DNA of 32,000 nucleotides from assembly GCA_004284765.1 (NCBI GenBank), contig NQJD01000003.1:90001-122000 (forward strand), in the 5' to 3' direction. Each line of letters begins with the position of its first letter. Within the stretch, counting starts at the first letter, position 1. The notes under the pieces are model-generated. The model did no database searches. It was not told the origin of the DNA and saw only the letters and a list, made by a program, of their open reading frames with translations. This DNA is from Candidatus Electronema aureum. GTDB lineage: Bacteria > Desulfobacterota > Desulfobulbia > Desulfobulbales > Desulfobulbaceae. Below are positions 7,998-23,986 of this stretch, piece by piece. Both the position numbers and the translations under genes were made by a program.

Positions 7998-9527
7998 ATG
8001 CAGCAAGCACCAATGACTGAACAATCTTCCCGCCGCCTTGTTTGGCTGATTCTGGCTCTCGGCTTGGCAGTGCGGCTGCTGATCAGCGGCCATTTCCTCC
8101 TTAGTCCAGATGAGACCAACTACTGGCAGTGGAGCCGCTATCTTGACTTAGGCTATTACGACCACCCGCCGATGATCGCTTGGACGATCTGGCTGACAAC
8201 CACGCTCTTTGGTCAAAACGAGTTTGCTGTCCGCCTGCCGACCGTGCTGGGCATGAGCATTGCCTCATTTTATCTTTACCTGCTGGCCGCCCGCTGGTTT
8301 TCGTGGCGCACTGCGTTGCACACTGCTGTCGTCAGTCAGTCGCTCCTGCTTCTCAACGGTGCCGCCTTGATTGCCACACCAGACGGCCTGCTCCTGCCCT
8401 GCTGGGCTGCGGCCTGCTATCATGCCGCCGTAGCTGCGGAAGAGGACAAACTGCGGCACTGGCTGCTCACCGGCCTGTGCTTTGGTCTCGGATTGCTGTC
8501 CAAATACACCATGTTGCTCTTTCTTCCCTCGCTCTTTTGCGCCCTGATTTTTACCGGCGCATACCGCACGCGACTGTTGAGCTGGAAGCCTTGGCTGGGT
8601 CTGCTGCTTGGGCTATCGCTGTTCACGCCAGTCGTCATTTGGAACTCGCACCACAACTGGGTGACATTCCGGCACGTGCTGTTTCAAGGCGGAGCGAATA
8701 ACACCGCGCTCTTCACCACCGAGTATCTGGCCGAGTTCTTCGGTAGCCAAGCCGGACTGCTCTCACCACTGATTTTCCTCTTTATCCTCGCGGCGTGGGT
8801 GCAAGGCTGGCGCAGCAGCCTGCCACAAGAACGGACGCGCTTCCTCATCTGGATGTCTCTGCCGGGTTTTGTCGTCTTCAGTCTGCTGGCCCTGCATGTG
8901 CGCATCTACGGCAACTGGCCTGCTCCGGCCTACCTGACTGGTCTGCTGCTGGCTGCGGCTCTGTATGCCAAGCAGCGGTGGTGGAATGTCGGAGTTGGCG
9001 TGGCGATGGTGATGTCCGCAGCAGTCATGCTTCAGCTCTGGTACCCTGTGCTACCGATACCGGTACAATGGGATAGAACCGCCCACGAAACCAAGGGATG
9101 GGATAAGATGGCTCAGGCAGTTGACCAAGAGCTGAGGCGGATGAAGCGGCCTGACAAAACCTTTGTCTTCGGCCTGCGCTACCAATTTGCCAGTGAGCTG
9201 GCCTTTTATATGCAGGGACAGCCGCGCACCGTGTCGATTAACCGCTGGTCACGGCCTAATGTCTATGACTTCTGGTTTGATGATCAGCTGCTGCTGGGCA
9301 TGGATGCGGTGGGTGTGTATGAACACAAGGGGATGGACATGATCCTGCGAGAGGTGTTTGAGCAAGTGAAGCCGGAGCGGGAGATTGTCCTTCGTCGCAC
9401 CTCGCCGTGGTTCGGCAGCGAGGTGCTGCAAACACTGTATGTGATCAGGTGCTACGGCTTCAAGGGCGGTCTGCGCTGGCTACCCAAGGAAGTTGGGGAT
9501 ATCAGGGCTGCGAATAATGCGGAGTAG
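7998..9527 (+). CDS. Glycosyltransferase family 39 (ArnT/PMT-like, lipid-linked-sugar-dependent membrane glycosyltransferase)
   Basis: The ORF is open from 7644. Family-typical sequence begins at RRLVWLILALGLAVRLL ... SPDETNYWQWSRYLDLGYYDHPPMIAW, followed by multiple TM helices. ATG at 7998 (or 8013) is preferred; the 118-codon upstream extension lies in A+T-rich sequence. Confidence 0.75.
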   Translation: MQQAPMTEQSSRRLVWLILALGLAVRLLISGHFLLSPDETNYWQWSRYLDLGYYDHPPMIAWTIWLTTTLFGQNEFAVRLPTVLGMSIASFYLYLLAARWFSWRTALHTAVVSQSLLLLNGAALIATPDGLLLPCWAAACYHAAVAAEEDKLRHWLLTGLCFGLGLLSKYTMLLFLPSLFCALIFTGAYRTRLLSWKPWLGLLLGLSLFTPVVIWNSHHNWVTFRHVLFQGGANNTALFTTEYLAEFFGSQAGLLSPLIFLFILAAWVQGWRSSLPQERTRFLIWMSLPGFVVFSLLALHVRIYGNWPAPAYLTGLLLAAALYAKQRWWNVGVGVAMVMSAAVMLQLWYPVLPIPVQWDRTAHETKGWDKMAQAVDQELRRMKRPDKTFVFGLRYQFASELAFYMQGQPRTVSINRWSRPNVYDFWFDDQLLLGMDAVGVYEHKGMDMILREVFEQVKPEREIVLRRTSPWFGSEVLQTLYVIRCYGFKGGLRWLPKEVGDIRAANNAE

Positions 9528-9539
9528 CTTGATGCTAGC

Positions 9540-9568
9540 GGAAAAAGACCACTGCGGTCATTTTTTCC
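9540..9568. terminator. Weak A-tract/hairpin/T-tract structure between convergent GT39 and cbiET genes (possible bidirectional terminator)
   Basis: ggaaaaagacc-actgc-ggtcattttttcc. The G/C core stem is only 4 bp and is extended by A:T pairs with bulges. It overlaps the cbiET stop codon (9558-9560). Confidence 0.3.
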
Positions 9569-10802
9569 CGGTGATGATAGTGATTGGGTTCAGCCGCAGG
9601 CTGGAGTCTTCTCCGTCCTCGCCGTATTCTTTTCTTTCCCGCGTGACCGAGATAGTGCGGGCATCCGCCTCTAAGCCATTAGCAGACATCAGCAATGGGG
9701 CTTGCTCTGCCGTATTTTGTAGTACCGCACTGACCACTAATCTGCCGCCTTGATTGAGCCGCTGGGCGCAGGGAGCGATAATCTCAGCCAACAGGCCTCG
9801 GCTGCCGCCGATGAAGATTCGATCTGGGTCAGGCAGGTTAGGAAAGACATCCGGGGCTTGGCCGCGCACCAAGGTGATGTTATAGAGGCTGTAGCGAACA
9901 ATATTGGCCCGGATGTTGTTCCAGCTTTCTTCCTTCTGCTCCACCACATAGACGGAGAGATTCGGACAGAGCCGCGCCGCCTCGACTGAGATAGAACCGG
10001 AGCCGCCGCCGATGTCCCAAAAGACCCCGCTCTGCGGCAGGCGGAGCCGATGCAGAATCACGGCTCGCACCTCATCCTTGGTGATTAGACCGCGAGAGTG
10101 ACAGATTTCATCCTCTTGCAGGCCGAAAACGCAGTCAGCACCTGCCTGATTCTCCTCCGCCGTCTGCTCGATCAGCATCATATTTAAGGGAGCAAAGTGC
10201 TGCCGCGCTGCCTCCTCAATGTTGCCTTCCCAAAGCCGCTCGTCTGGCCAGCCGAGATTCTCTGCCACTCGGACATGTAGTCGTTCTATCCGCTCATGAT
10301 CGCCGTATTCCTCCAACAAAACCAAGAGGTCAGCAGCTATTCGGTTGGGGCTGCGGCGATGGTCAGTGAAGAGCATCACCTTCGGCTGCGAGAGAATTTT
10401 GCCTGCCAGCGTATCAAACGAGCGGCCATGCAAGCTGATCAAACAAAGATCGTCCCAAGGAATTTTGAAGCGGGCGCAGGCTAACTGCACAGCGGAAATG
10501 GCCGGAAAAATCTCTACCCGTTCTACACCAAAACGTTCGATCAAGGTGCGGCCGATGCCAAAAAAAAGCGGGTCACCAGAGGCTAAGACCGCGACATCGC
10601 CGCTCTGAAGGGCCACAGCCAGCTCGAAAATCATGTCCTCGACCGGACTGATGGCGATCCAGTGGATACCCAGACCGTGCAGCAGCTCGTGGTGTCGCTT
10701 TGACGCGACCACCGCACCACAGCCTTCGATCCTCTGCCGCTGCTCTGGCTCTAACCTGCCGCCGCTGATGCCGAAGAGTAAGATTTCAAACGTATTCAAC
10801 AA
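9558..10802 (-). CDS. cbiET: Fused precorrin-6Y/cobalt-precorrin C5,C15-methyltransferase (decarboxylating), CbiE + CbiT domains
   Basis: 414 aa. The N-terminal half is tetrapyrrole-methylase-like (VLASGDPLFFGIG). The C-terminal half is a class-I SAM methyltransferase (VFWDIGGGSGSISVEAA). TTG start with AAGGAAGGAA immediately upstream. Confidence 0.85.
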   Translation of the reverse strand: MLNTFEILLFGISGGRLEPEQRQRIEGCGAVVASKRHHELLHGLGIHWIAISPVEDMIFELAVALQSGDVAVLASGDPLFFGIGRTLIERFGVERVEIFPAISAVQLACARFKIPWDDLCLISLHGRSFDTLAGKILSQPKVMLFTDHRRSPNRIAADLLVLLEEYGDHERIERLHVRVAENLGWPDERLWEGNIEEAARQHFAPLNMMLIEQTAEENQAGADCVFGLQEDEICHSRGLITKDEVRAVILHRLRLPQSGVFWDIGGGSGSISVEAARLCPNLSVYVVEQKEESWNNIRANIVRYSLYNITLVRGQAPDVFPNLPDPDRIFIGGSRGLLAEIIAPCAQRLNQGGRLVVSAVLQNTAEQAPLLMSANGLEADARTISVTRERKEYGEDGEDSSLRLNPITIITGKK

Positions 10803-10962
10803 TTCCTTCCTTTGAGATCATGAGGCAAGAAAGTAAACTTTTTCATAGCGAAACTATTTGATAGGTTTTAAGCTCAAGCGTGGTGCTAGGCCGAGAGTCC
10901 GCACTGAAAAGTGCGTGAAAAACATAGCATACAATTTCCAAACAAATCAAGCAGAAAACCTG

Positions 10963-11376
10963 ATGGAACTCAGAGAGTTTGTCGAAATAGCATTGAAAGA
11001 TATATTCGGCGGAACAAAGGATGCCCAAAAGCAGATTTTATACGGCGAGATTATTCCGAACAAAGATGGGAAAACCGGCGAGGCTGACATTGAGTTTGAG
11101 ATAGCGGTTAAACCTGAAAACAACAAATTAGTTGTGGTTATCCCGCCAGCTCCTCCGGCTCCTAATTTGAGCAAGGTGAAATTTAAAATACCTGTGCGGC
11201 TCCCAAAGAGACGAGGAGGTTTCCTGAGTCACGTAATTGAATATTATATCATAAAGAGAAGGAAGCAAAAAGCAATGCCTGTGCCTGATGAATCTCAATC
11301 TCCGCCACAGCCCGCAGATGCGGCGACAGACGCGAAAGATGAGCCAAAACCGCCTTCTGAGGGGGAAAGGAAATGA
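10963..11376 (+). CDS. Hypothetical protein: small N-terminal alpha+beta region, Pro-rich segment, basic patch, acidic P/A/D-rich tail
   Basis: The ORF track starts at TTG 10858; the first ATG at 10963 gives MELREFVEIALKDIFGG... It is reminiscent of trypco2-type small domains of conflict systems (N-terminal helix, then ADIEFEIAV / VKFKIPV strands), but this is a weak by-eye impression. No obvious Shine-Dalgarno. Confidence 0.4.
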   Translation: MELREFVEIALKDIFGGTKDAQKQILYGEIIPNKDGKTGEADIEFEIAVKPENNKLVVVIPPAPPAPNLSKVKFKIPVRLPKRRGGFLSHVIEYYIIKRRKQKAMPVPDESQSPPQPADAATDAKDEPKPPSEGERK

Positions 11377-11566
11377 ACGAGAGTTGAACTGGAGCAGGAA
11401 AAAGAGTTTTGGCGGAGAAACTATCCAGCGGTTTATTGTTGACTTTTTAGACTTCATCATGTTTAGTTACACGCTTCCAATCCAAAGGGTTGAATACAAA
11501 CTTTGCGGGACACTTCACAGAAATTTCATTTTTCTATTGTCAAATATTCCGTTATAATCACTAATT

Positions 11567-11944
11567 ATGAATTGGACACATTATGGATTCCCTGAAAATT
11601 GCCCGCCAAATGATGCGAGAGAGTACGAAGGATTGATTTATGTGTTTGTAAAGCATAGTCCACCAGTCTCTGATGATTTTCGTACAGCTCACGATAAGAA
11701 AATACATCCAGACGGAGACCCGTGCCAAAGACGATCAATTTCTTGTGGAACTGATATAGATTATTTGAATAAGACAGCAATATTATATCCTATCTTCAAA
11801 AAATGGCAAAAAGCTGTCGGGAAAATCAATTACGATGACGGTCTTATAAAACAAACAGGAACTCAGTCTCTTCATTATAGTTTTTGGATATCGCCAGAAA
11901 AAAGAGAGAATTTTAACAAATTATTCGAGATAATTGAATTATGA
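11567..11944 (+). CDS. Hypothetical protein (125 aa), ORFan, in A+T-rich islet
   Basis: ATG at 11567 lies only 8 nt after a perfect TATAAT (11553-11558) and has no Shine-Dalgarno. The stop overlaps the next start (ATGA at 11941-11944). I recognise no family. Confidence 0.5.
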   Translation: MNWTHYGFPENCPPNDAREYEGLIYVFVKHSPPVSDDFRTAHDKKIHPDGDPCQRRSISCGTDIDYLNKTAILYPIFKKWQKAVGKINYDDGLIKQTGTQSLHYSFWISPEKRENFNKLFEIIEL

Positions 11945-13074
11945 ATTTCAATTGGCAGGATTATCGTCAGAAGATTCCAAGTTTTTTTTCTCCTGGAAAA
12001 CATTTTTTAACTCTTATGGAGTACGAATTTCCATTACTCTTTATATCTTCAGCAGAAGAGAGTCTCTATTTAAATTATTTTATCGATGAAGATGAATGTG
12101 GAATAATTAGATATCTACATGTTCCGATCTCTATTATGAAAATTAGAGCATTGGCATCAGGAGGGATTGCACTGTATGATTGCATAAATGCTGAAAATAT
12201 TCATATATATGATCTCAACCAAGATGGAAACGTATCGTTTGTCGCTGAATTAGATTTCTCTAATATCCCAACAGATGCTTTACCCCCAAAAGAAGAAAAA
12301 ATTCCTGCTCTATCTAAAGATATAATTAATTCAGTTTTATACGGTTTTGACCCTGGCGAGCTATGTTTCATACTGTCAAGTAAAACCACTTCAAAACACA
12401 CGCTATCATTCAATAAACTTTCGAATTTTCTAAAAACTACTCAAAATTTAGTTTCAAAATTACCATTATACAATAAAGCTGTAGATAGATGTATAACTTC
12501 AGACGATTACGAACTCAGTGCTGTTGCTCTTAAAGCAGCATCGTTCGCAGTCACAGCTACAACAGAGAATGAAAGCGCAAAAAATGCAATTTCTACCTAC
12601 ATTCCAGAAATAACTAATCTTTTTTTGAAAAGTTCTCCCGATGACATTCGGCGTTATTTTGATTTAATACCAAAAGAATTAATTTTAGCTTTCTTTGAAT
12701 ATTACAAGGAAATATTAAGTAATAAATATGAATTTATACTGCAACACAAGAGTGGATCGATGTATTTAAATTATTCCGACGTTGAAAAAATAAAGCGAAA
12801 TGTTAATAATGCAAATTATTCAAAAAAGGAATATCTCGAAAAAGAAGGCTATTTAATCGGAGCGAATTTAAATACGAATTCTTTCTATTTTGAAGATATA
12901 GAAAAAAATATATACAAAGGAAAAATGTCTTCTGATTTCCTCACTTCACGCTCAGAGGTAACTCTGTCAAAAATAACTTGCAATGCTTCATTTAAAATCG
13001 AGACAGAAATGAAATTTTCAAAATTTACACATTTTTATGAACTTCTAAAGATAGATGAATCTGATCATCATTAA
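11941..13074 (+). CDS. Hypothetical protein (377 aa), ORFan, in A+T-rich islet
   Basis: Long uninterrupted ORF in ~30% G+C DNA, where stop codons would be frequent by chance. Translationally coupled to the upstream ORF. No catalytic motif recognised. Confidence 0.6.
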   Translation: MNFNWQDYRQKIPSFFSPGKHFLTLMEYEFPLLFISSAEESLYLNYFIDEDECGIIRYLHVPISIMKIRALASGGIALYDCINAENIHIYDLNQDGNVSFVAELDFSNIPTDALPPKEEKIPALSKDIINSVLYGFDPGELCFILSSKTTSKHTLSFNKLSNFLKTTQNLVSKLPLYNKAVDRCITSDDYELSAVALKAASFAVTATTENESAKNAISTYIPEITNLFLKSSPDDIRRYFDLIPKELILAFFEYYKEILSNKYEFILQHKSGSMYLNYSDVEKIKRNVNNANYSKKEYLEKEGYLIGANLNTNSFYFEDIEKNIYKGKMSSDFLTSRSEVTLSKITCNASFKIETEMKFSKFTHFYELLKIDESDHH

Positions 13075-13261
13075 GATGATATAAGGGCTTTTAATGATAG
13101 CTCCTCGCGCTACGCTCCCTCCTTGGTAAAGATCAGCTCACCGATCGTCTCGTTAACGGTTCCCCACGTCAGCACAAAGCCGTTCGCCGAAACCGAGATG
13201 CTGTGAGAAAATAATCACCCCGAATAGGCTGTGCCTATTTATCCTGAACGCATCCCTGCTC

Positions 13262-13300
13262 GGCAATAAAACGCAAGCCGGGGCAAGAATTCACCCCGGC
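13262..13300 (-). terminator. Rho-independent terminator of the Ter/ATPase gene train
   Basis: gccgggg (13277-13283) pairs with ccccggc (13294-13300) across a 10-nt loop. On the minus strand it is followed by ttgcgttttatt. It sits 28 nt beyond the ATPase stop. Confidence 0.6.
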
Positions 13301-13327
13301 ATTAAACAAGGTTGTCAGCTGTCTCTC

Positions 13328-16015
13328 TTAGACTGTTTTCTTGTGCTTGCTGAAAAGATATTTTCTCGCAAGATCAAAAGGAATAATTCCCACAGAAAAG
13401 ACAACAACCCAGAACCAATCCTGAATACCAAGGGAAACTGTTCTGAATACTTCGCCGCCTATGTAGGTGATGATGACCTGAATGATAAAGATCATGCTCA
13501 CCACTTTCAGAAATCCCTTGTTGGCAGCGAGATGATCAAAAAGGTTCAATCCTTCTACGCGGACATTGAACTTGTTGAAGTTGCTTAAGAACACGAACAC
13601 CCCGAAAAAGGCGGTCATGAAGATTTCCTCAGTGGCAAAAAGTCCGCGAATACTGTCCGCCTTTAAAAAGGACACGCAAATCGCGGTAGTGAAAAAGCCG
13701 TTGAACAGGATGGACTGCCACATGCTGGATGTGATGATCTTTTCATCCCGTTTTTTCGGTTTTTCCTCCATGTATTCAGGCAGTGGCGGTTCTCCTGAAA
13801 AGGCTAAGGCAGCTAAGGAATCCATAATCAGATTCACCCAGAGGAGCTGAATCATGGTCAGCGGCAACTCGAAACCTAAAAAGGGTCCGAGAAAGGTGAT
13901 AGAAATCGCGGATACGCTGACCGTGAGCTGAAAGGTGATGAATTTCTGAATGGACCGATAAATAGTCCGGCCATAATGCACCGCGCTGGCAATAGAGCGG
14001 ATATTGTCATCAAGCACAACAATGTCTGAGGCTTCTTTTGCCACCTCAGTGCCACTGCCGAGTCCGAAACCGATATCAGCGGCACTCAAGGCCGGACTAT
14101 CGTTGACTCCGTCACCAGTCATGCCGACTACCATGCCCATTTCCTGAGCTATCTTCACCAAACGAGATTTGTCTGAAGGAAAACATCTTGCCACAACGCG
14201 CAAGCGAGGAAGAATACCTTTCAGCTTCTCATCAGAAATATTGGTCATCTCTTCAGAGGTTAAAATAATATCCTCTGCTGAACTGATTAGCCCAGCATCT
14301 TTAGCTATCGCTTCTGCTGTACCTTTGCGGTCGCCGGTAATCATGACCACTTGAATTCCAGCACTGTGTAACTCTTTGATAGTGACAGCAGAGTCAAGAC
14401 GCAGATCATCGCGGATCATTGCAAATCCAAGCAGGCAGAGATGATCTTCAATGTCGTCTAAACTTTCTGGGATATCCTCTTCGGTCAAGGCAAGGCCGAT
14501 CAAACGAAAGCCCTTGTCGCCTTTGCTGTCAATCTCCTTAAAGATAGCCTCTTTTTTTGAGGCTAAAAGAGCTGTAAGATTTCCTTGGCTATTGTAGAAT
14601 GAACTAGATTTATTGAGAATTCTTTCTGGTGCCCCCTTGAGATAGGTCATCCGTTGACCATCCTTCTCTTGTAGGCGAACTGCGGAAAATTTCCGGGAAG
14701 AATTGAAAAGCAGTTCATCTACCTGCTCAAAGGATTTCTCTTCATACTGACATTCTTTGATATCTGCCCGGACGAATTTCAACAACGCACGGTCAGTGCT
14801 GTTGCCGCCTACAATCCGTTCAGATTCTTTATTCGCATTGCAATTCACCACACAGGAAGTGTTCTCTCGCAGCGAGACATCGAGCAGATGAGCATTTTTC
14901 CTCGGCAGCTCCTCGCAGGAATTGTACTGAATCATAGCAGTTCCGGTTTCTTCATCGGCCACCGCAAGGAAGCCCACGGTTTCCATCTGCCCTTTGGTGA
15001 TAGTACCTGTTTTATCAGTAAAAAGGAGATTAAGGCTACCAGAAGTCTCTACACCAAGCAGCTGCCGTACCAGCACGTTGGATTTGAGCAGCTTCCGCAT
15101 GTTCTGTGCCAAAACCACGGCAATCATCATCGGCAGACCCTCTGGAACAGCCACAACAATAATGATCACCGCCAGAATCAGGGCGATGGCAAGATCGTAA
15201 ATCAGCTTGTGCCAATTGGCAATATAGGCGGCCATGGCCGCTGCCTCGCCGCCGTTGTCCAAATAAATTGCTTTAAACATGAAAACCACAGCAATCAGCG
15301 GTGCGGCAATATATCCAAACAAGGCAATACGGTCGGCCAGATGTGCCAGCTTTACCCGCAGTGGCCCAGGACGCTCATCGGTTTTCAATCCTTCAGCCAA
15401 TTTACCCAAATGCGTCTTGTCACCAACCTGCTGCACCTCCATGACTGCTTCGCCGTCTTCAATAATTGTTCCTCTGAACACAGCATGAGGGTCTTCCAGA
15501 TTGGCAGTATCTGCTGCACCAGGGATTTTAGTCCGCGCCTCTGGCTCGCCAGTCAGGGCAGCCTGACTCACTTTGACTTTGCCCTGAATGAGAGAGCCAT
15601 CTGCCGGAATTTTATCTCCTGGCTGGAGAAGAATCATATCTCCGACCACTATGTCATCAATGCTGATAACAGACACGCTGTTATCTCGGAAAACATTGAC
15701 TCTAATTCTGGAGGCCTCTTCTTGGAGCTTCTGAAAAGTTTGCTCATTTTTGAATTCAGAAATCGTTGCTACTAACGCAGCCAAAACAACCGCAGCAGCA
15801 ATACCAATCCCTTCATACCATTCAGCAAATCCAAGCAGAGCTAAAAGGGTGACAATAACCAAGGCAACTGTCAGAATGACAATCATTGGGTCTTTGAAAT
15901 TGTCAATCAACTTATCCCAGAATGTTTCAGTCTCTACTGTGCTGATCTGGTTAGAGCCATGCGCAACTCTGGAGGTCATGACTTCCTGATGTGAAAGCCC
16001 TTTAACGTGATACAT
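13328..16015 (-). CDS. P2-type cation-translocating ATPase, Ca2+-ATPase-like
   Basis: DKTGTITKG phosphorylation site, TGDGVNDSPAL hinge, VPEGLPMMIAV (TM4) and VNLIMDSLAALAFSGEPP (TM6, PMCA/SERCA-like). N-terminal GLSHQEVMTSRVAHGSNQ is a cation-ATPase N domain. Start ATG at 16015 with AAGGAGA 8 nt upstream is preferred over the ORF-track start at 16060. Confidence 0.9.
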   Translation of the reverse strand: MYHVKGLSHQEVMTSRVAHGSNQISTVETETFWDKLIDNFKDPMIVILTVALVIVTLLALLGFAEWYEGIGIAAAVVLAALVATISEFKNEQTFQKLQEEASRIRVNVFRDNSVSVISIDDIVVGDMILLQPGDKIPADGSLIQGKVKVSQAALTGEPEARTKIPGAADTANLEDPHAVFRGTIIEDGEAVMEVQQVGDKTHLGKLAEGLKTDERPGPLRVKLAHLADRIALFGYIAAPLIAVVFMFKAIYLDNGGEAAAMAAYIANWHKLIYDLAIALILAVIIIVVAVPEGLPMMIAVVLAQNMRKLLKSNVLVRQLLGVETSGSLNLLFTDKTGTITKGQMETVGFLAVADEETGTAMIQYNSCEELPRKNAHLLDVSLRENTSCVVNCNANKESERIVGGNSTDRALLKFVRADIKECQYEEKSFEQVDELLFNSSRKFSAVRLQEKDGQRMTYLKGAPERILNKSSSFYNSQGNLTALLASKKEAIFKEIDSKGDKGFRLIGLALTEEDIPESLDDIEDHLCLLGFAMIRDDLRLDSAVTIKELHSAGIQVVMITGDRKGTAEAIAKDAGLISSAEDIILTSEEMTNISDEKLKGILPRLRVVARCFPSDKSRLVKIAQEMGMVVGMTGDGVNDSPALSAADIGFGLGSGTEVAKEASDIVVLDDNIRSIASAVHYGRTIYRSIQKFITFQLTVSVSAISITFLGPFLGFELPLTMIQLLWVNLIMDSLAALAFSGEPPLPEYMEEKPKKRDEKIITSSMWQSILFNGFFTTAICVSFLKADSIRGLFATEEIFMTAFFGVFVFLSNFNKFNVRVEGLNLFDHLAANKGFLKVVSMIFIIQVIITYIGGEVFRTVSLGIQDWFWVVVFSVGIIPFDLARKYLFSKHKKTV

Positions 16016-23401: not shown

Positions 23402-23986
23402 CTACAGTGAATGCGAGATTATCGGCATAAGATCGTTGAAGGTTCTTCCAGCTCCCCATTCTCCAATAGCCTTGAATTTCCATTCACCGTTATGGCGATA
23501 TAGTTTAGCGATAACGAGACCTGTTTTACTTCCACCTTCCACGCTAAGGTCATATTTTGCAATTATCTTGCCGGTCTTGTTATCCTTCAGAATGCAGAAC
23601 GCATTGGGAACACCGTCAAATGAATCATTCAAGAAACTATTGACGGTAAACATTAAGGTGCTGATGTTGCTTGGCACGGCGTTGAGCCGGACAAGAATTT
23701 CCTCATTGGGATCATCCGCCTGTCCTCCTCCGCTCCGATCATCTCCGCTGTGCGACACGGAGCCGTCCTTGCTTTGAAGCTGCCGAAACCAAACCGCATC
23801 TTTTAAGATTTTTTGTTCGTCAAATAAGAGACATGAGGCATCCAAGTCAACATCCACCAATTTGGAAAGACCCAAGAAGCCTTTTTCTTTTCTCTGGCCC
23901 CAGCCTAATCCCAACACGGCATCAGTTAAATGGGGAGCCTCTTTTGCCAATGAAATATTCGCACCTTTGGAAAGATTGATCGACAT
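23402..23986 (-). CDS. TerD-domain protein, divergent paralogue (TerZ/TerX-like)
   Basis: MSINLSKGANISLAKEAP..LGLGW, VDVDLDASCLLF, SGDDRSGGGQADDPNEE (variant acidic loop), AKLYRHNGEWKFKAIGE. AAGGAG Shine-Dalgarno. Confidence 0.85.
   Translation of the reverse strand: MSINLSKGANISLAKEAPHLTDAVLGLGWGQRKEKGFLGLSKLVDVDLDASCLLFDEQKILKDAVWFRQLQSKDGSVSHSGDDRSGGGQADDPNEEILVRLNAVPSNISTLMFTVNSFLNDSFDGVPNAFCILKDNKTGKIIAKYDLSVEGGSKTGLVIAKLYRHNGEWKFKAIGEWGAGRTFNDLMPIISHSL

What the first reader, a model, noticed from the sequence alone, without database searches (positions are those of the whole stretch)
10858..13074. A+T-rich ORFan islet (three unassignable genes, two translationally coupled) directly abutting the defence-type locus: candidate novel conflict/toxin system
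Composition drops sharply. My spot counts give 19/60 G+C at 12001-12060, against 38/60 in cbiET at 10201-10260. Even so, a 377-codon ORF stays open, which argues for real coding. The 125-aa and 377-aa ORFs overlap by ATGA (11941-11944), the classic layout of two-component toxin/antitoxin or sensor/effector pairs. I recognise no nuclease, NTPase, TIR, Sir2, protease or transposase motif in any of the three products. By the established 'defence island' principle, unknown genes next to defence loci are enriched for new defence systems.
Basis: partly seen in the sequence, partly recalled or inferred. Interest (0 to 1): 0.7.

Follow-up and report, generated by a model that had tools for sequence, protein, structure and literature searches.

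The report
Divergent PD-T4-10-type toxin–antitoxin defence cassette
The two overlapping A+T-rich genes are a horizontally acquired, very divergent copy of a known two-gene toxin–antitoxin anti-phage module (PD-T4-10, a small protein plus a DUF6575 protein) in a cable bacterium; the third gene is an unrelated host gene, so this is a new member of a known but mechanistically unsolved family, not a new system.

Summary
ORF coordinates, the ATGA overlap and both G+C spot counts reproduce exactly. The window is from Candidatus Electronema aureum.

The "three-gene ORFan islet" splits in two:
- **orfA** (137 aa, ATG 10963) is a host-backbone gene. A close relative (L062) keeps cbiET–orfA–ATPase but lacks orfB and orfC.
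- **orfB + orfC** lie on a 1905-bp segment (11352–13256) that replaces 261 bp in L062. DNA homology to other copies stops at the two coding sequences.

They are not ORFans:
- orfB's profile retrieves 789 protein clusters, and 21 of the 35 family members tested match PADLOC PD-T4-10_A.
- Distant orfB homologues are followed by an overlapping orfC homologue (hhalign 93–98%).
- orfC's own N-domain hits PD-T4-10_B (E 8.6e-6).
- E. coli prophages and plasmids carry the same pair, annotated "hypothetical + DUF6575".

PD-T4-10 is experimentally a toxin (B) / antitoxin (A) abortive-infection system of unknown biochemistry. The "conflict/toxin pair" reading is therefore supported. The claims of novelty, of three genes and of defence-island logic are not: the neighbours are a Ter stress cluster and housekeeping genes with no PADLOC hits.

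Verdict: new member of a known kind, modest interest. The orfB model weakly resembles the ADP-ribosyltransferase/RES fold, but no match is significant.

The parts
11567..11944 (+). orfB, 125 aa: divergent PD-T4-10_A-family small protein, the putative antitoxin
   Evidence: - ORF. Called as CAK8723297.1 'hypothetical protein'.
- dN/dS 0.09-0.30.
- Its profile retrieves 789 clusters; 21 of 35 tested family members hit PADLOC PD-T4-10_A, best E 2.2e-13.
- The window-clade profile matches the small partner of an E. coli DUF6575 gene at hhalign 92.9%, E 3.8e-7. The broad profile gives 99.5%, E 1.5e-22.
- The window protein itself gives no direct PADLOC hit.
- AF2 model: pLDDT 87.9.
11941..13074 (+). 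orfC, 377 aa: divergent PD-T4-10_B / DUF6575-type protein, the putative toxin/effector
   Evidence: - ORF. Called as TAA75858.1 / CAK8723293.1 'hypothetical protein'.
- dN/dS 0.12-0.26.
- hhalign to the partners of distant orfB homologues: 98.2% (308 columns), 93.0% (301 columns), 94.0% (94 columns).
- The family profile matches an E. coli DUF6575 protein at 69%, E 4.4e-5, over 190 columns.
- AF2 model is poor, pLDDT 43.5.
12013..12294 (+). orfC N-terminal domain (aa 25-118), the part shared with PD-T4-10_B and DUF6575
   Evidence: - Scanned as an isolated domain it hits PADLOC PD-T4-10_B at E 8.6e-6, profile positions 23-117 of 353.
- Close relatives hit the same profile region at 1e-6 to 6e-3.
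- Close relatives also hit Pfam DUF6575 at 1.5e-4 to 2.5e-4, which is below the gathering score.
11941..11944 (+). ATGA start/stop overlap coupling orfB and orfC
   Evidence: - Sequence confirmed.
- The same 4-nt overlap occurs in L001, L002, L009, L010, L051, L057, L066, L067 and L068.
- The overlap is 10-14 nt in L053 and L055.
- L003 has a 2-nt gap and L065 a 9-nt gap.
- Sources.
11352..13256 (.). 1905-bp segment present in the window and absent from the otherwise collinear relative L062: the acquired cassette plus non-homologous flanks
   Evidence: - blastn: L062 203-2507 equals window 9006-11351 at 90.1%. L062 2769-4152 equals window 13257-14640 at 94.0%.
- In L062 a 261-bp repeat-rich spacer takes the place of this segment.
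- Segment G+C is 0.343.
10963..11376 (+). orfA, 137 aa: a lineage-specific host gene of unknown function. It is adjacent to the cassette but not part of it.
   Evidence: - Called from ATG 10963 (CDV28_10396).
- Present between cbiET and the ATPase in L062, which lacks orfB and orfC.
- pN/pS 0.117 against L062.
- Absent from all other cassette loci.
- No family or PDB match.
- Its last ~8 codons differ from L062 because the left breakpoint (11351/11352) lies inside them.
11553..11558 (+). perfect TATAAT hexamer 8 nt upstream of the orfB ATG: a candidate -10 box, possibly giving a leaderless or very short-leader mRNA
   Evidence: - Read directly from the sequence.
- No Shine-Dalgarno sequence before orfB.
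- Not conserved in position in the other copies, and not reported by the promoter scan because no -35 partner fits. Weak evidence only.

Best explanation
orfB (11567-11944) and orfC (11941-13074) form a horizontally acquired two-gene cassette. It is a very divergent member of the PD-T4-10 family: a small protein A followed by an overlapping protein B with a DUF6575-type N-terminal domain.

By analogy with the E. coli system, orfC is the growth-arresting toxin/effector and orfB is its co-translated antitoxin. The most likely mode of neutralisation is direct binding of orfB to the conserved N-terminal domain of orfC. Phage infection, or loss of the cassette, would free orfC and stop the cell. 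That would give abortive-infection defence, addiction, or both.

orfA is an unrelated host gene.

- **Shown here:** homology of both proteins, conserved pairing and overlap, purifying selection, and the presence/absence polymorphism.
- **Inferred:** toxicity of orfC, neutralisation by orfB, the defence role in this host, and the binding site.
- **Unknown for the whole family:** the biochemical activity of the toxin.
For: 1. **Pairing.** The small and large genes are adjacent in every homologous locus. They overlap by 4-14 nt in most loci; L003 has a 2-nt gap, L065 a 9-nt gap and L011 a 47-nt gap.
   - This holds in close relatives with 57-82% identity.
   - It holds in three of the four distant orfB homologues looked up with 25-36% identity.
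   - It holds in plasmid and E. coli prophage copies.
2. **Partner homology.** The ~380-aa partners of distant orfB homologues are orfC homologues: hhalign 98.2%, 93.0% and 94.0%.
3. **Link to PD-T4-10.**
   - The orfC N-domain hits PADLOC PD-T4-10_B at 8.6e-6. Relatives score 1e-6 to 6e-3, and distant partners 6e-10 to 6e-8.
   - 21 of 35 orfB-family members hit PD-T4-10_A, the only PADLOC family matched, with best E 2.2e-13.
   - The L001 orfB hits PD-T4-10_A at 9.8e-4.
4. **Link to the E. coli 'hypothetical + DUF6575' pair.** hhalign gives 92.9% (window clade) and 99.5% (broad family) for A, and 69% (E 4.4e-5, 190 columns) for B.
5. **Experimental basis** (PMC9519451). PD-T4-10 has two overlapping ORFs. 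B is toxic, A neutralises it and cannot be deleted, and deleting B abolishes T4 resistance. The defence is abortive infection. DUF6575 is listed among the newly defence-associated domains.
6. **Acquisition.**
   - An empty site exists in L062.
   - Homology to other copies stops at the coding-sequence ends.
   - Cassette G+C is 0.29-0.39 whatever the host context.
7. **Modularity supporting 'A acts on the B N-domain'.** In L055 an orfB homologue (PD-T4-10_A, 3e-9) overlaps a 1262-aa protein. The first ~123 residues of that protein hit PD-T4-10_B (6.2e-5) and DUF6575 (2.9e-4), followed by HKD-nuclease and SNF2-helicase domains.
Against: - The window's orfB gives no direct hit to the PD-T4-10_A model at E<=10. 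Its assignment rests on profile-level and transitive evidence.
- The full-length orfC gave no PADLOC or Pfam hit, and its N-domain gave no DUF6575 hit.
- Only the N-terminal ~120-200 residues of orfC align with PD-T4-10_B or DUF6575. The C-terminal ~150-250 residues, where a toxic activity might lie, have no detectable counterpart. The toxin activity could therefore differ or be absent.
- A2 against the Pantoea DUF6575 protein was not significant.
- I could not obtain the actual ECOR65 PD-T4-10 sequences, so that comparison is through PADLOC's models only.
- No promoter is conserved upstream, and neither gene has an obvious Shine-Dalgarno sequence.
- No functional data exist for any member outside E. 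coli.
- orfB carries a set of family-invariant polar residues (C12, D37, C53, S59, T97, H103). That looks more like an enzyme or metal site than a passive antitoxin.
Confidence: 0.75

Rival explanations
1. Enzymatic-antitoxin or sensor variant. orfB is not a passive binder. It is an enzyme with an ADP-ribosyltransferase/RES-like fold that keeps orfC inactive by covalent modification (type VII-like TA logic), or that senses a phage cue through NAD+ or nucleotide chemistry.
For: - The orfB AF2 model is confident (pLDDT 87.9, pTM 0.82).
- In two independent Foldseek libraries the top hits are individually non-significant but converge on ART-fold proteins.
  - PDB: EcPltA, pertussis toxin S1, the Xre-RES toxin 9r35_A (TMq 0.47), CC0527 and IcmQ.
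  - BFVD: a phage rifampin-ART-like protein, an ART-PolyVal domain and an RNA 2'-phosphotransferase.
- Conserved residues sit where ART motifs sit, by my reading: an Arg on strand 1 in about 60% of family members, the invariant S59 on strand 2, and the invariant H103 at the start of strand 5.
- The family keeps invariant polar residues over very deep divergence.
Against: - No fold match is significant: best E is 0.2-0.6, with TM mostly 0.3-0.47.
- No sequence or profile hit to any ART or RES entry in Pfam or the PDB.
- The window's clade has Val, not Arg, on strand 1, and no family member has the catalytic Glu of ARTs.
- C12 and D37 are not kept in the E. coli and Pantoea homologues.
- In E. 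coli, A behaves simply as the antitoxin.
Confidence: 0.12
2. Purely selfish addiction module. The pair is a toxin-antitoxin cassette that persists by post-segregational killing and horizontal transfer, and gives this host no anti-phage benefit.
For: - It shows a patchy presence/absence between close relatives.
- It is a minimal two-gene unit with no conserved flanks.
- It inserts next to housekeeping genes in different genomes.
- It occurs on plasmids and prophages.
- No defence genes surround it in the window.
Against: [quoted passage not shown]
- In E. coli prophages the pair occupies classic moron/defence slots, between the Q antiterminator and the holin or between the lysis genes and the terminase.
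- Some copies sit beside other TA, methylase or helicase genes.
- Addiction and defence are not mutually exclusive.
Confidence: 0.1
3. orfA, orfB and orfC together form a new three-gene ORFan conflict system, recruited next to a defence locus.
For: - The three genes lie on the same strand and are contiguous.
- All three lack family hits at default thresholds.
- The Ter-type cluster lies nearby.
Against: - orfA stays in place when orfB and orfC are absent (L062).
- orfA is missing from all other cassette loci.
- orfA has a different G+C, 0.45 against 0.31-0.35.
- orfB and orfC have hundreds of homologues and a named, tested relative.
- The Ter cluster has no PADLOC hit.
Confidence: 0.02

Closest known systems
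PD-T4-10 (Vassallo et al. 2022, Nat Microbiol; ECOR65, RCO36089.1 / RCO36088.1; PADLOC models PDLC04023 and PDLC04024)
   Same: - Two ORFs in the order small then large, with a start/stop overlap.
- Similar sizes: profile lengths 148 and 353, against 125 and 377 aa here.
- The B N-terminal domain is homologous: window E 8.6e-6, relatives down to 6e-10.
- The A family is homologous at family level: 21 of 35 members, best 2.2e-13.
- No recognisable catalytic domain in either protein.
- Carried on mobile DNA or in variable DNA.
   Different: - Extremely divergent. The window's orfB does not hit the A model directly.
- Only profile positions ~5-129 of the 353-position B model are matched; the rest of orfC has no detectable counterpart.
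- The host is a cable bacterium (Desulfobulbaceae), with a chromosomal, non-prophage location between cbiET/orfA and a P-type ATPase.
- Toxicity, neutralisation and phage defence are untested here.
Pfam DUF6575 (PF20215) proteins with their upstream small 'hypothetical protein', as annotated in E. coli prophages and in Pantoea, Rahnella and Oscillatoria plasmids
   Same: - Same two-gene layout and overlap.
- The small proteins match the orfB family profile at 98-99.5%, and the window-clade profile at 92.9%.
- The orfC family aligns colinearly with an E. coli DUF6575 protein over 190 columns: 69%, E 4.4e-5.
   Different: - The window protein does not reach the DUF6575 gathering score. Close relatives score 21-22 bits against 26.6; the window itself gives no hit.
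- The Pantoea and Rahnella partners are larger (429-432 aa) and show a weak, sub-threshold C-terminal DUF7226 match that is not detected in orfC.
- The 'CPP...C' cysteines that are invariant in the window's wider clade are absent from the enterobacterial small proteins.
Type II toxin-antitoxin / abortive-infection modules in general
   Same: - Translationally coupled two-gene operon.
- Patchy distribution.
- Horizontal mobility.
- Foreign base composition.
   Different: - The gene order is antitoxin first, as in many such systems, but the antitoxin has no detectable DNA-binding domain (HTH, RHH or AbrB) in Pfam.
- At 377 aa the toxin is much larger than classical type II toxins, and it belongs to no known toxin superfamily.
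ADP-ribosyltransferase-fold toxins (RES of Xre-RES, pertussis S1 / PltA, Arr, Tpt1)
   Same: - They are the recurrent top Foldseek neighbours of the orfB model.
- The strand order is similar, and conserved residues sit on strands 1, 2 and 5.
   Different: - None of the matches is significant.
- The catalytic Glu is absent, and the Arg is absent in this clade.
- In this family the small protein is the antitoxin, not the toxin.

Membership tests
PD-T4-10 two-gene defence/TA system | Two adjacent ORFs, small (A) then large (B), with overlapping stop and start | tested here: met
   - ATGA at 11941-11944.
- The layout is conserved in the homologous loci.
PD-T4-10 two-gene defence/TA system | B protein homologous to PD-T4-10_B (PADLOC PDLC04024) | tested here: met
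   - The isolated orfC N-domain scores E 8.6e-6 (aa 25-118 against profile positions 23-117).
- Relatives: L001 1e-6, L011 1.3e-4, L002 1.6e-3, L003 6.2e-3.
- Distant partners score 6e-10 to 6e-8.
- Only the N-terminal third of the profile is matched, and the full-length protein gave no hit at E<=0.1.
PD-T4-10 two-gene defence/TA system | A protein homologous to PD-T4-10_A (PADLOC PDLC04023) | tested here: inconclusive
   - Directly, the window orfB gives no hit at E<=10.
- Indirectly, its profile retrieves a family in which 21 of the 35 members tested hit PD-T4-10_A, with best E 2.2e-13.
- The 64%-identical L001 protein hits at 9.8e-4.
- The window-clade profile matches the E. coli DUF6575-partner protein at 92.9%, E 3.8e-7.
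- I accept homology on this transitive evidence.
PD-T4-10 two-gene defence/TA system | Full-length similarity of B, including the C-terminal region | tested here: not met
   - No PADLOC alignment extends beyond profile position ~129 of 353.
- hhalign to the E. coli DUF6575 protein ends at about residue 229.
PD-T4-10 two-gene defence/TA system | B is toxic, A neutralises it, and the pair gives abortive-infection protection against phage | not testable with these tools
   Known only for the E. coli ECOR65 system (PMC9519451).
Pfam DUF6575 (PF20215) | Match at or above the gathering score (26.6 bits) | tested here: not met
   - Window N-domain: no hit at E<=1.
- L001 scores 21.0 bits and L011 21.7 bits, both to the same profile region (21-125 of 218).
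- Plasmid partners score 114-164 bits.
- All. This is a sub-threshold, divergent relative.
ADP-ribosyltransferase / RES fold (for orfB) | Significant structural similarity to an ART-fold protein | tested here: not met
   - Best Foldseek E is 0.5 in the PDB and 0.2 in BFVD. TM scores normalised to the query are 0.33-0.47, with one BFVD hit at 0.57.
ADP-ribosyltransferase / RES fold (for orfB) | Catalytic motif (R-S-E, H-Y-E or R-E-S) | tested here: not met
   - The window clade has V26 where many family members have Arg.
- S59 is invariant.
- The position of the catalytic Glu is occupied by the invariant H103.
Defence island (the context argument) | Neighbouring genes belong to known defence systems | tested here: not met
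   - No PADLOC hits for the ATPase, TerY_C/vWA, AIM24 or TerD proteins, or for other window proteins tested.
- The kinase shows only generic kinase-domain similarity to PD-T4-6, Mad6 and MkoA at 1e-6 to 1e-3.
- The remaining genes are housekeeping.
Classical type II TA | Antitoxin with a DNA-binding (HTH / RHH / AbrB) domain | tested here: not met
   - No such Pfam hit for orfB or for any of the 35 family members.
- The fold model is a compact alpha/beta domain.

The most novel reading that the evidence does not exclude
The small A protein is a previously unrecognised, minimal ADP-ribosyltransferase/RES-like enzyme family, with an 'R-S-H' arrangement of conserved residues. It acts as an enzymatic antitoxin or infection sensor for effectors that carry a DUF6575 N-domain. 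That N-domain is a portable 'A-receptor' module that can be fused to unrelated effectors, such as the orfC-type C-terminus or an HKD nuclease plus SNF2 helicase. If so, PD-T4-10-like systems would be a modular sensor/effector platform and not a simple type II TA.
Probability: 0.12. Interest if true: 0.7.

Novelty: new member of a known kind. Interest (0 to 1): 0.3.

Why it matters
- **For the scan.** An apparent "ORFan conflict islet" turns out to be a known, experimentally validated defence/TA family. Its novelty and island arguments were not.
- **For the family.**
  - It extends PD-T4-10/DUF6575 pairs from enterobacterial prophages to cable bacteria and many environmental lineages (789 clusters).
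  - It shows that the two components co-diverge as a pair.
  - It gives a clean presence/absence polymorphism that delimits the mobile unit to the two coding sequences.
  - It points to the B N-terminal domain as the conserved partner of A. That domain can also be fused to an HKD–SNF2 effector.
- **Open question.** The toxin's biochemistry is still unknown for the whole family, so any member is a possible entry point. This copy offers no special advantage, and its host cannot be grown in pure culture.

Tried and rejected
- **Default family scans.** Full-length Pfam, NCBIfam, PADLOC and PHROGs scans of the three proteins found nothing. The link appeared only after scanning distant homologues and the isolated N-domain.
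- **PDB sequence and profile searches** for orfA, orfB and orfC found nothing meaningful.
- **orfC structure.** The AF2 model from 7 sequences was poor (pLDDT 43.5). Its Foldseek hits are IF1/CusF-type OB folds on the C-terminal beta region, plus BrxL at rmsd ~20 Å. I treat the OB-fold hint as tentative at best and the BrxL hits as meaningless.
- **Collection scans.**
  - The genome-contig scan with the orfC alignment found nothing.
  - The metagenome scan only re-found known contigs.
  - The viral-contig scan for orfA found nothing.
  - tblastn of distant members against phages, and of one distant member against plasmids, found nothing.
- **Synteny through cbiET.** Other Electronema and Desulfobulbaceae genomes share only cbiET, so they gave no empty site. 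The empty site came from an orfA cluster member instead.
- **Mobility and RNA signals.**
  - No tRNA in the window.
  - No Rfam hit in 10700-13400.
  - No direct or inverted repeats in the boundary regions 11300-11600 and 13050-13330.
  - No conserved promoter upstream of orfB.
- **P0078.** This 3897-aa hit with 13 matched stretches is a eukaryotic Cys-rich repeat protein, and I rejected it as spurious.
- **orfA start.** My first guess for its ATG (10954) was wrong. The correct start is 10963.
- **A memory-based idea** that orfA's N-terminus resembles a 'trypco2'-type domain has no tool support, so I dropped it.


Full report
**1. The observation**

Both spot counts are exact, 19/60 G+C at 12001-12060 and 38/60 at 10201-10260, and so is the ATGA overlap at 11941-11944.

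G+C falls to 0.31-0.35 between 11501 and 13000, against about 0.55 in cbiET. At orfC's composition the probability that 377 codons stay open by chance is about 3e-14. At default settings none of the three full-length proteins hits Pfam, NCBIfam, PADLOC or PHROGs.

The window comes from Candidatus Electronema aureum, a cable bacterium.

**2. The "islet" is two unrelated things**

The public annotation calls orfA as a 137-aa protein starting at ATG 10963 (CDV28_10396). One member of its 90%-identity cluster lies on a metagenomic contig, L062. That contig carries cbiET(-), orfA(+) and the P-type ATPase(-), but no orfB or orfC.

The blastn comparison gives:
- L062 203-2507 matches window 9006-11351 at 90.1%.
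- L062 2769-4152 matches window 13257-14640 at 94.0%.
- Between these blocks the window has 1905 bp (11352-13256) and L062 has 261 bp of unrelated, repeat-rich spacer.

orfA is therefore host backbone. It is under purifying selection (pN/pS 0.117 against L062), has G+C 0.45, and is absent from every other locus that carries the pair. The left breakpoint lies inside its last ~8 codons, which explains the different C-termini. orfA's function stays unknown, with no hits.

**3. orfB + orfC is a conserved, mobile two-gene cassette**

The large-database search found 7 orfC relatives (57-100% identity) and 4 orfB relatives. In every contig recovered the two genes are adjacent and nearly always overlap: L001, L002, L003-5, L009, L010 and L011. 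The flanking genes differ each time. They include metG, pheA, a bamA-like gene and orphan genes.

DNA similarity to the window stops at the ends of the coding sequences, 11553-13059. The cassette keeps G+C of 0.29-0.39 in every host context. dN/dS is 0.09-0.30 for both genes. These are real genes that move as a minimal pair.

**4. They are not ORFans**

An exhaustive profile search with the orfB clade found 789 representative clusters at E<=1e-3, and 65 at E<=1e-10. Most are stand-alone proteins of 120-145 aa. A 35-member alignment (A4) shows these invariant residues: C12, P13, D37, C53, S59, T97, H103 and W107. No Pfam family or PDB entry covers this family.

Contexts of distant members (25-36% identity):

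| Locus | Small gene | Downstream gene |
|---|---|---|
| L051 | 133 aa | overlapping, 382 aa |
| L053 | 143 aa | overlapping, 378 aa |
| L057-60 | 126 aa | overlapping, 394 aa |
| L055 | 136 aa | overlapping, 1262-aa PLD/SNF2 protein |
| L063 | 126 aa | overlapping 217 aa, then 145 aa (possibly a split partner) |

The 378-394-aa partners are orfC homologues. hhalign gives 98.2% (E 3.9e-14, 308 columns), 93.0% (301 columns) and 94.0% (N-domain).

**5. Identification as PD-T4-10 / DUF6575**

*PADLOC evidence.*
- Distant small proteins hit PD-T4-10_A, up to 3e-9 over the full profile length.
- Their partners hit PD-T4-10_B at 6e-10 to 6e-8, on N-terminal profile positions ~5-129 of 353.
- 21 of the 35 A4 members hit PD-T4-10_A, the only PADLOC family matched, with best E 2.2e-13.
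- Scanned as an isolated domain, the window's own orfC N-terminus (aa 25-118) hits PD-T4-10_B at 8.6e-6. Relatives score 1e-6 (L001), 1.3e-4 (L011), 1.6e-3 (L002) and 6.2e-3 (L003).
- L001's orfB hits PD-T4-10_A at 9.8e-4. The window's orfB does not hit directly.

*Plasmid and E. coli evidence.*
- tblastn found family members on Pantoea, Rahnella, Oscillatoria and Rhodococcus plasmids.
- In the three plasmid loci fetched, RefSeq annotates the next gene as "DUF6575 domain-containing protein". Pfam confirms this at 1e-33 to 1e-48.
- E. coli chromosomes carry the same overlapping pair inside lambdoid prophages. In L067 it lies between the Q antiterminator and the holin. In L068 it lies between the lysis genes and the terminase.

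*Direct profile comparisons with the E. coli pair.*
- Window-clade orfB profile against the E. coli small protein: 92.9%, E 3.8e-7.
- Broad orfB family against the same protein: 99.5%, E 1.5e-22.
- orfC family against the E. coli DUF6575 protein: 69%, E 4.4e-5, 190 colinear columns.

*Limits.* The window clade is sub-threshold for Pfam DUF6575. L001 and L011 score 21-22 bits against a cut-off of 26.6, and the window itself gives no hit. A2 against the Pantoea protein was not significant.

**6. What is known about PD-T4-10**

Vassallo et al. 2022 (PMC9519451) report the following:
- The system has two overlapping ORFs with no predicted function.
- B is toxic and A neutralises it.
- A cannot be deleted, and deleting B abolishes T4 resistance.
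- Defence is by abortive infection and is strong against T-even phages.
- The source is ECOR65 (RCO36089.1 and RCO36088.1).
- DUF6575 is listed among the domains newly linked to defence.

A 2024 review preprint still describes the system as being of unknown function. In the searched library, no paper other than Vassallo et al. (preprint and journal versions) mentions DUF6575.

**7. Most likely mechanism**

*Shown here:* homology of both proteins, conserved coupling, purifying selection and recent acquisition.

*Inferred:* orfC is the toxin/effector and orfB its antitoxin, made in fixed proportion through translational coupling. Neutralisation most likely acts through the conserved orfC N-domain.

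That last point rests on L055. There an orfB homologue overlaps a 1262-aa protein whose first ~123 residues hit PD-T4-10_B (6.2e-5) and DUF6575 (2.9e-4). HKD-nuclease and SNF2-helicase domains follow (C3a139 3.7e-68) (hhalign borderline). The A protein and the B N-domain are the constant part, and the effector part varies.

What orfC's C-terminal ~250 residues do is unknown. The low-confidence model shows a helical region and a C-terminal beta-barrel that Foldseek pairs with small OB folds. I treat that as tentative only.

**8. An unresolved oddity**

The orfB model is confident (pLDDT 87.9). Its best Foldseek neighbours in two libraries are not significant, but they are repeatedly ART-fold proteins:
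- PDB: PltA, pertussis S1, the RES toxin, CC0527 and IcmQ.
- BFVD: a phage Arr-like protein, ART-PolyVal and a Tpt1-like protein.

Conserved residues fall on strands 1, 2 and 5, where ART motifs lie. However, the window clade lacks the Arg and no family member has the catalytic Glu. The cysteines are not conserved in the enterobacterial homologues. I keep an enzymatic-antitoxin or sensor reading as a minority rival at about 0.12.

**9. Context claim**

The gene abutting the cassette is a P-type cation ATPase. Beyond it lie a kinase, a PP2C phosphatase, TerY_C/vWA, vWA, AIM24, vWA and two TerD genes. This is a Ter-type stress cluster.

None of these hits PADLOC, apart from generic kinase similarity. 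The rest of the window is housekeeping: cobalamin, polysaccharide, CoA and cytochrome genes. The window has no tRNA or Rfam element, and no boundary repeats were found next to the cassette. No integrase or transposase domain appeared in the window proteins scanned against Pfam. The "defence island" argument therefore does not hold here. The correct conclusion was reached for a reason that does not apply.

**10. Verdict**

This is a divergent new member of a known, experimentally validated but mechanistically unsolved TA/abortive-infection family. It is two genes, not three. Interest is modest at 0.3. The most novel surviving reading is an ART-like enzymatic A protein serving a modular, DUF6575-N-domain effector platform. 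I give that about 0.12 probability.

Noticed in passing
L062:2549-2783: The spacer that occupies the cassette's place in the empty-site relative holds an array of 4-5 palindromic motifs (consensus TTGTTGCTCGGCAACAA), with copy starts spaced by multiples of 21 nt (42, 63, 84, 105). The motifs also pair as inverted repeats. Only the last copy's remnant (CTGCTCGGCAATAAAA, about 13257-13272) survives in the window, and the motif occurs nowhere else in the 32 kb. It could be a REP-like element or a protein-binding array, and possibly a hotspot for insertion.
   Followed up: partly
L055:1721-5906: An orfB-family gene (136 aa, PD-T4-10_A 3e-9) overlaps a 1262-aa gene. That protein starts with a PD-T4-10_B / DUF6575-like N-domain (aa 1-123) and continues as an HKD (PLD) nuclease plus an SNF2 helicase (PADLOC C3a139 3.7e-68, DrmD-like). 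This is an apparently undescribed fusion that links the PD-T4-10 A/N-domain module to a DISARM-like helicase-nuclease effector.
   Followed up: partly
L063:155-1635: Here the orfB homologue is followed by overlapping 217-aa and 145-aa genes instead of one ~380-aa gene. The B protein may be split or frameshifted. The neighbourhood holds a DUF433/PIN-like TA pair, a DNA methylase and a CopG antitoxin. Homology of the two pieces to orfC was not tested.
   Followed up: no
L011:467-1967: In this metagenomic copy the orfB homologue ends early (…GDQLFIIASG*) and so loses the conserved H-x-S-x-W C-terminus. It is separated from orfC by 47 nt instead of overlapping it. This is either a decaying copy with an orphaned toxin gene or an assembly frameshift.
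   Followed up: no
window:11567-11944: The older MAG annotation numbers orfA as CDV28_10396 and orfC as CDV28_10397, so orfB was not called there. Only the later complete-genome annotation has it (CAK8723297.1). Small A genes of this family may be under-annotated in general.
   Followed up: partly
window:13075-13256: 182 bp of ordinary G+C (0.505) lie inside the segment that is absent from L062. They are not homologous to any other cassette locus and contain only ORFs of 21-37 codons. Their origin is unknown; they may be a remnant of whatever delivered the cassette.
   Followed up: partly
window:13328-23986 (- strand): A complete Ter-type stress cluster: two TerD genes, three vWA proteins (one with a TerY_C metal-binding domain), AIM24, a PP2C phosphatase, a Ser/Thr kinase (the 'TerY-P triad' components) and a P-type cation ATPase. 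None hits PADLOC. The ATPase-orfA-cbiET junction is conserved in L062, but cbiET has entirely different neighbours in Ca. Electronema halotolerans (L012) and UBA5173 (L013).
   Followed up: partly
window:24001-24500: A second sharp A+T-rich trough (G+C 0.30) lies in the intergenic region between the TerD operon (ends at 23986, - strand) and the divergent CDP-alcohol phosphatidyltransferase gene (24776, + strand). It is probably a divergent promoter region and was not examined.
   Followed up: no
L067:4564-6290; L068:4527-6238: In E. coli the A + DUF6575 pair sits in two different lambdoid-prophage accessory (moron) slots: between the Q antiterminator and the holin, and between the Rz-type lysis genes and the terminase. 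At least two sequence types exist. 3 genomes matched one type over ~75% of the query and 8 matched only a ~190-nt core, out of 5426 complete genomes reached by DNA similarity from a Rahnella copy.
   Followed up: partly
L001:7888-9342: Upstream of the cassette in this relative lies another A+T-rich stretch. It holds an unannotated 326-aa gene and a 48-aa ORF resembling a small antitoxin-like protein (my reading only; not tested against any family library), and a YafQ-type TA pair lies about 7 kb away. This suggests a small variable region, and not a single-gene insertion site.
   Followed up: no
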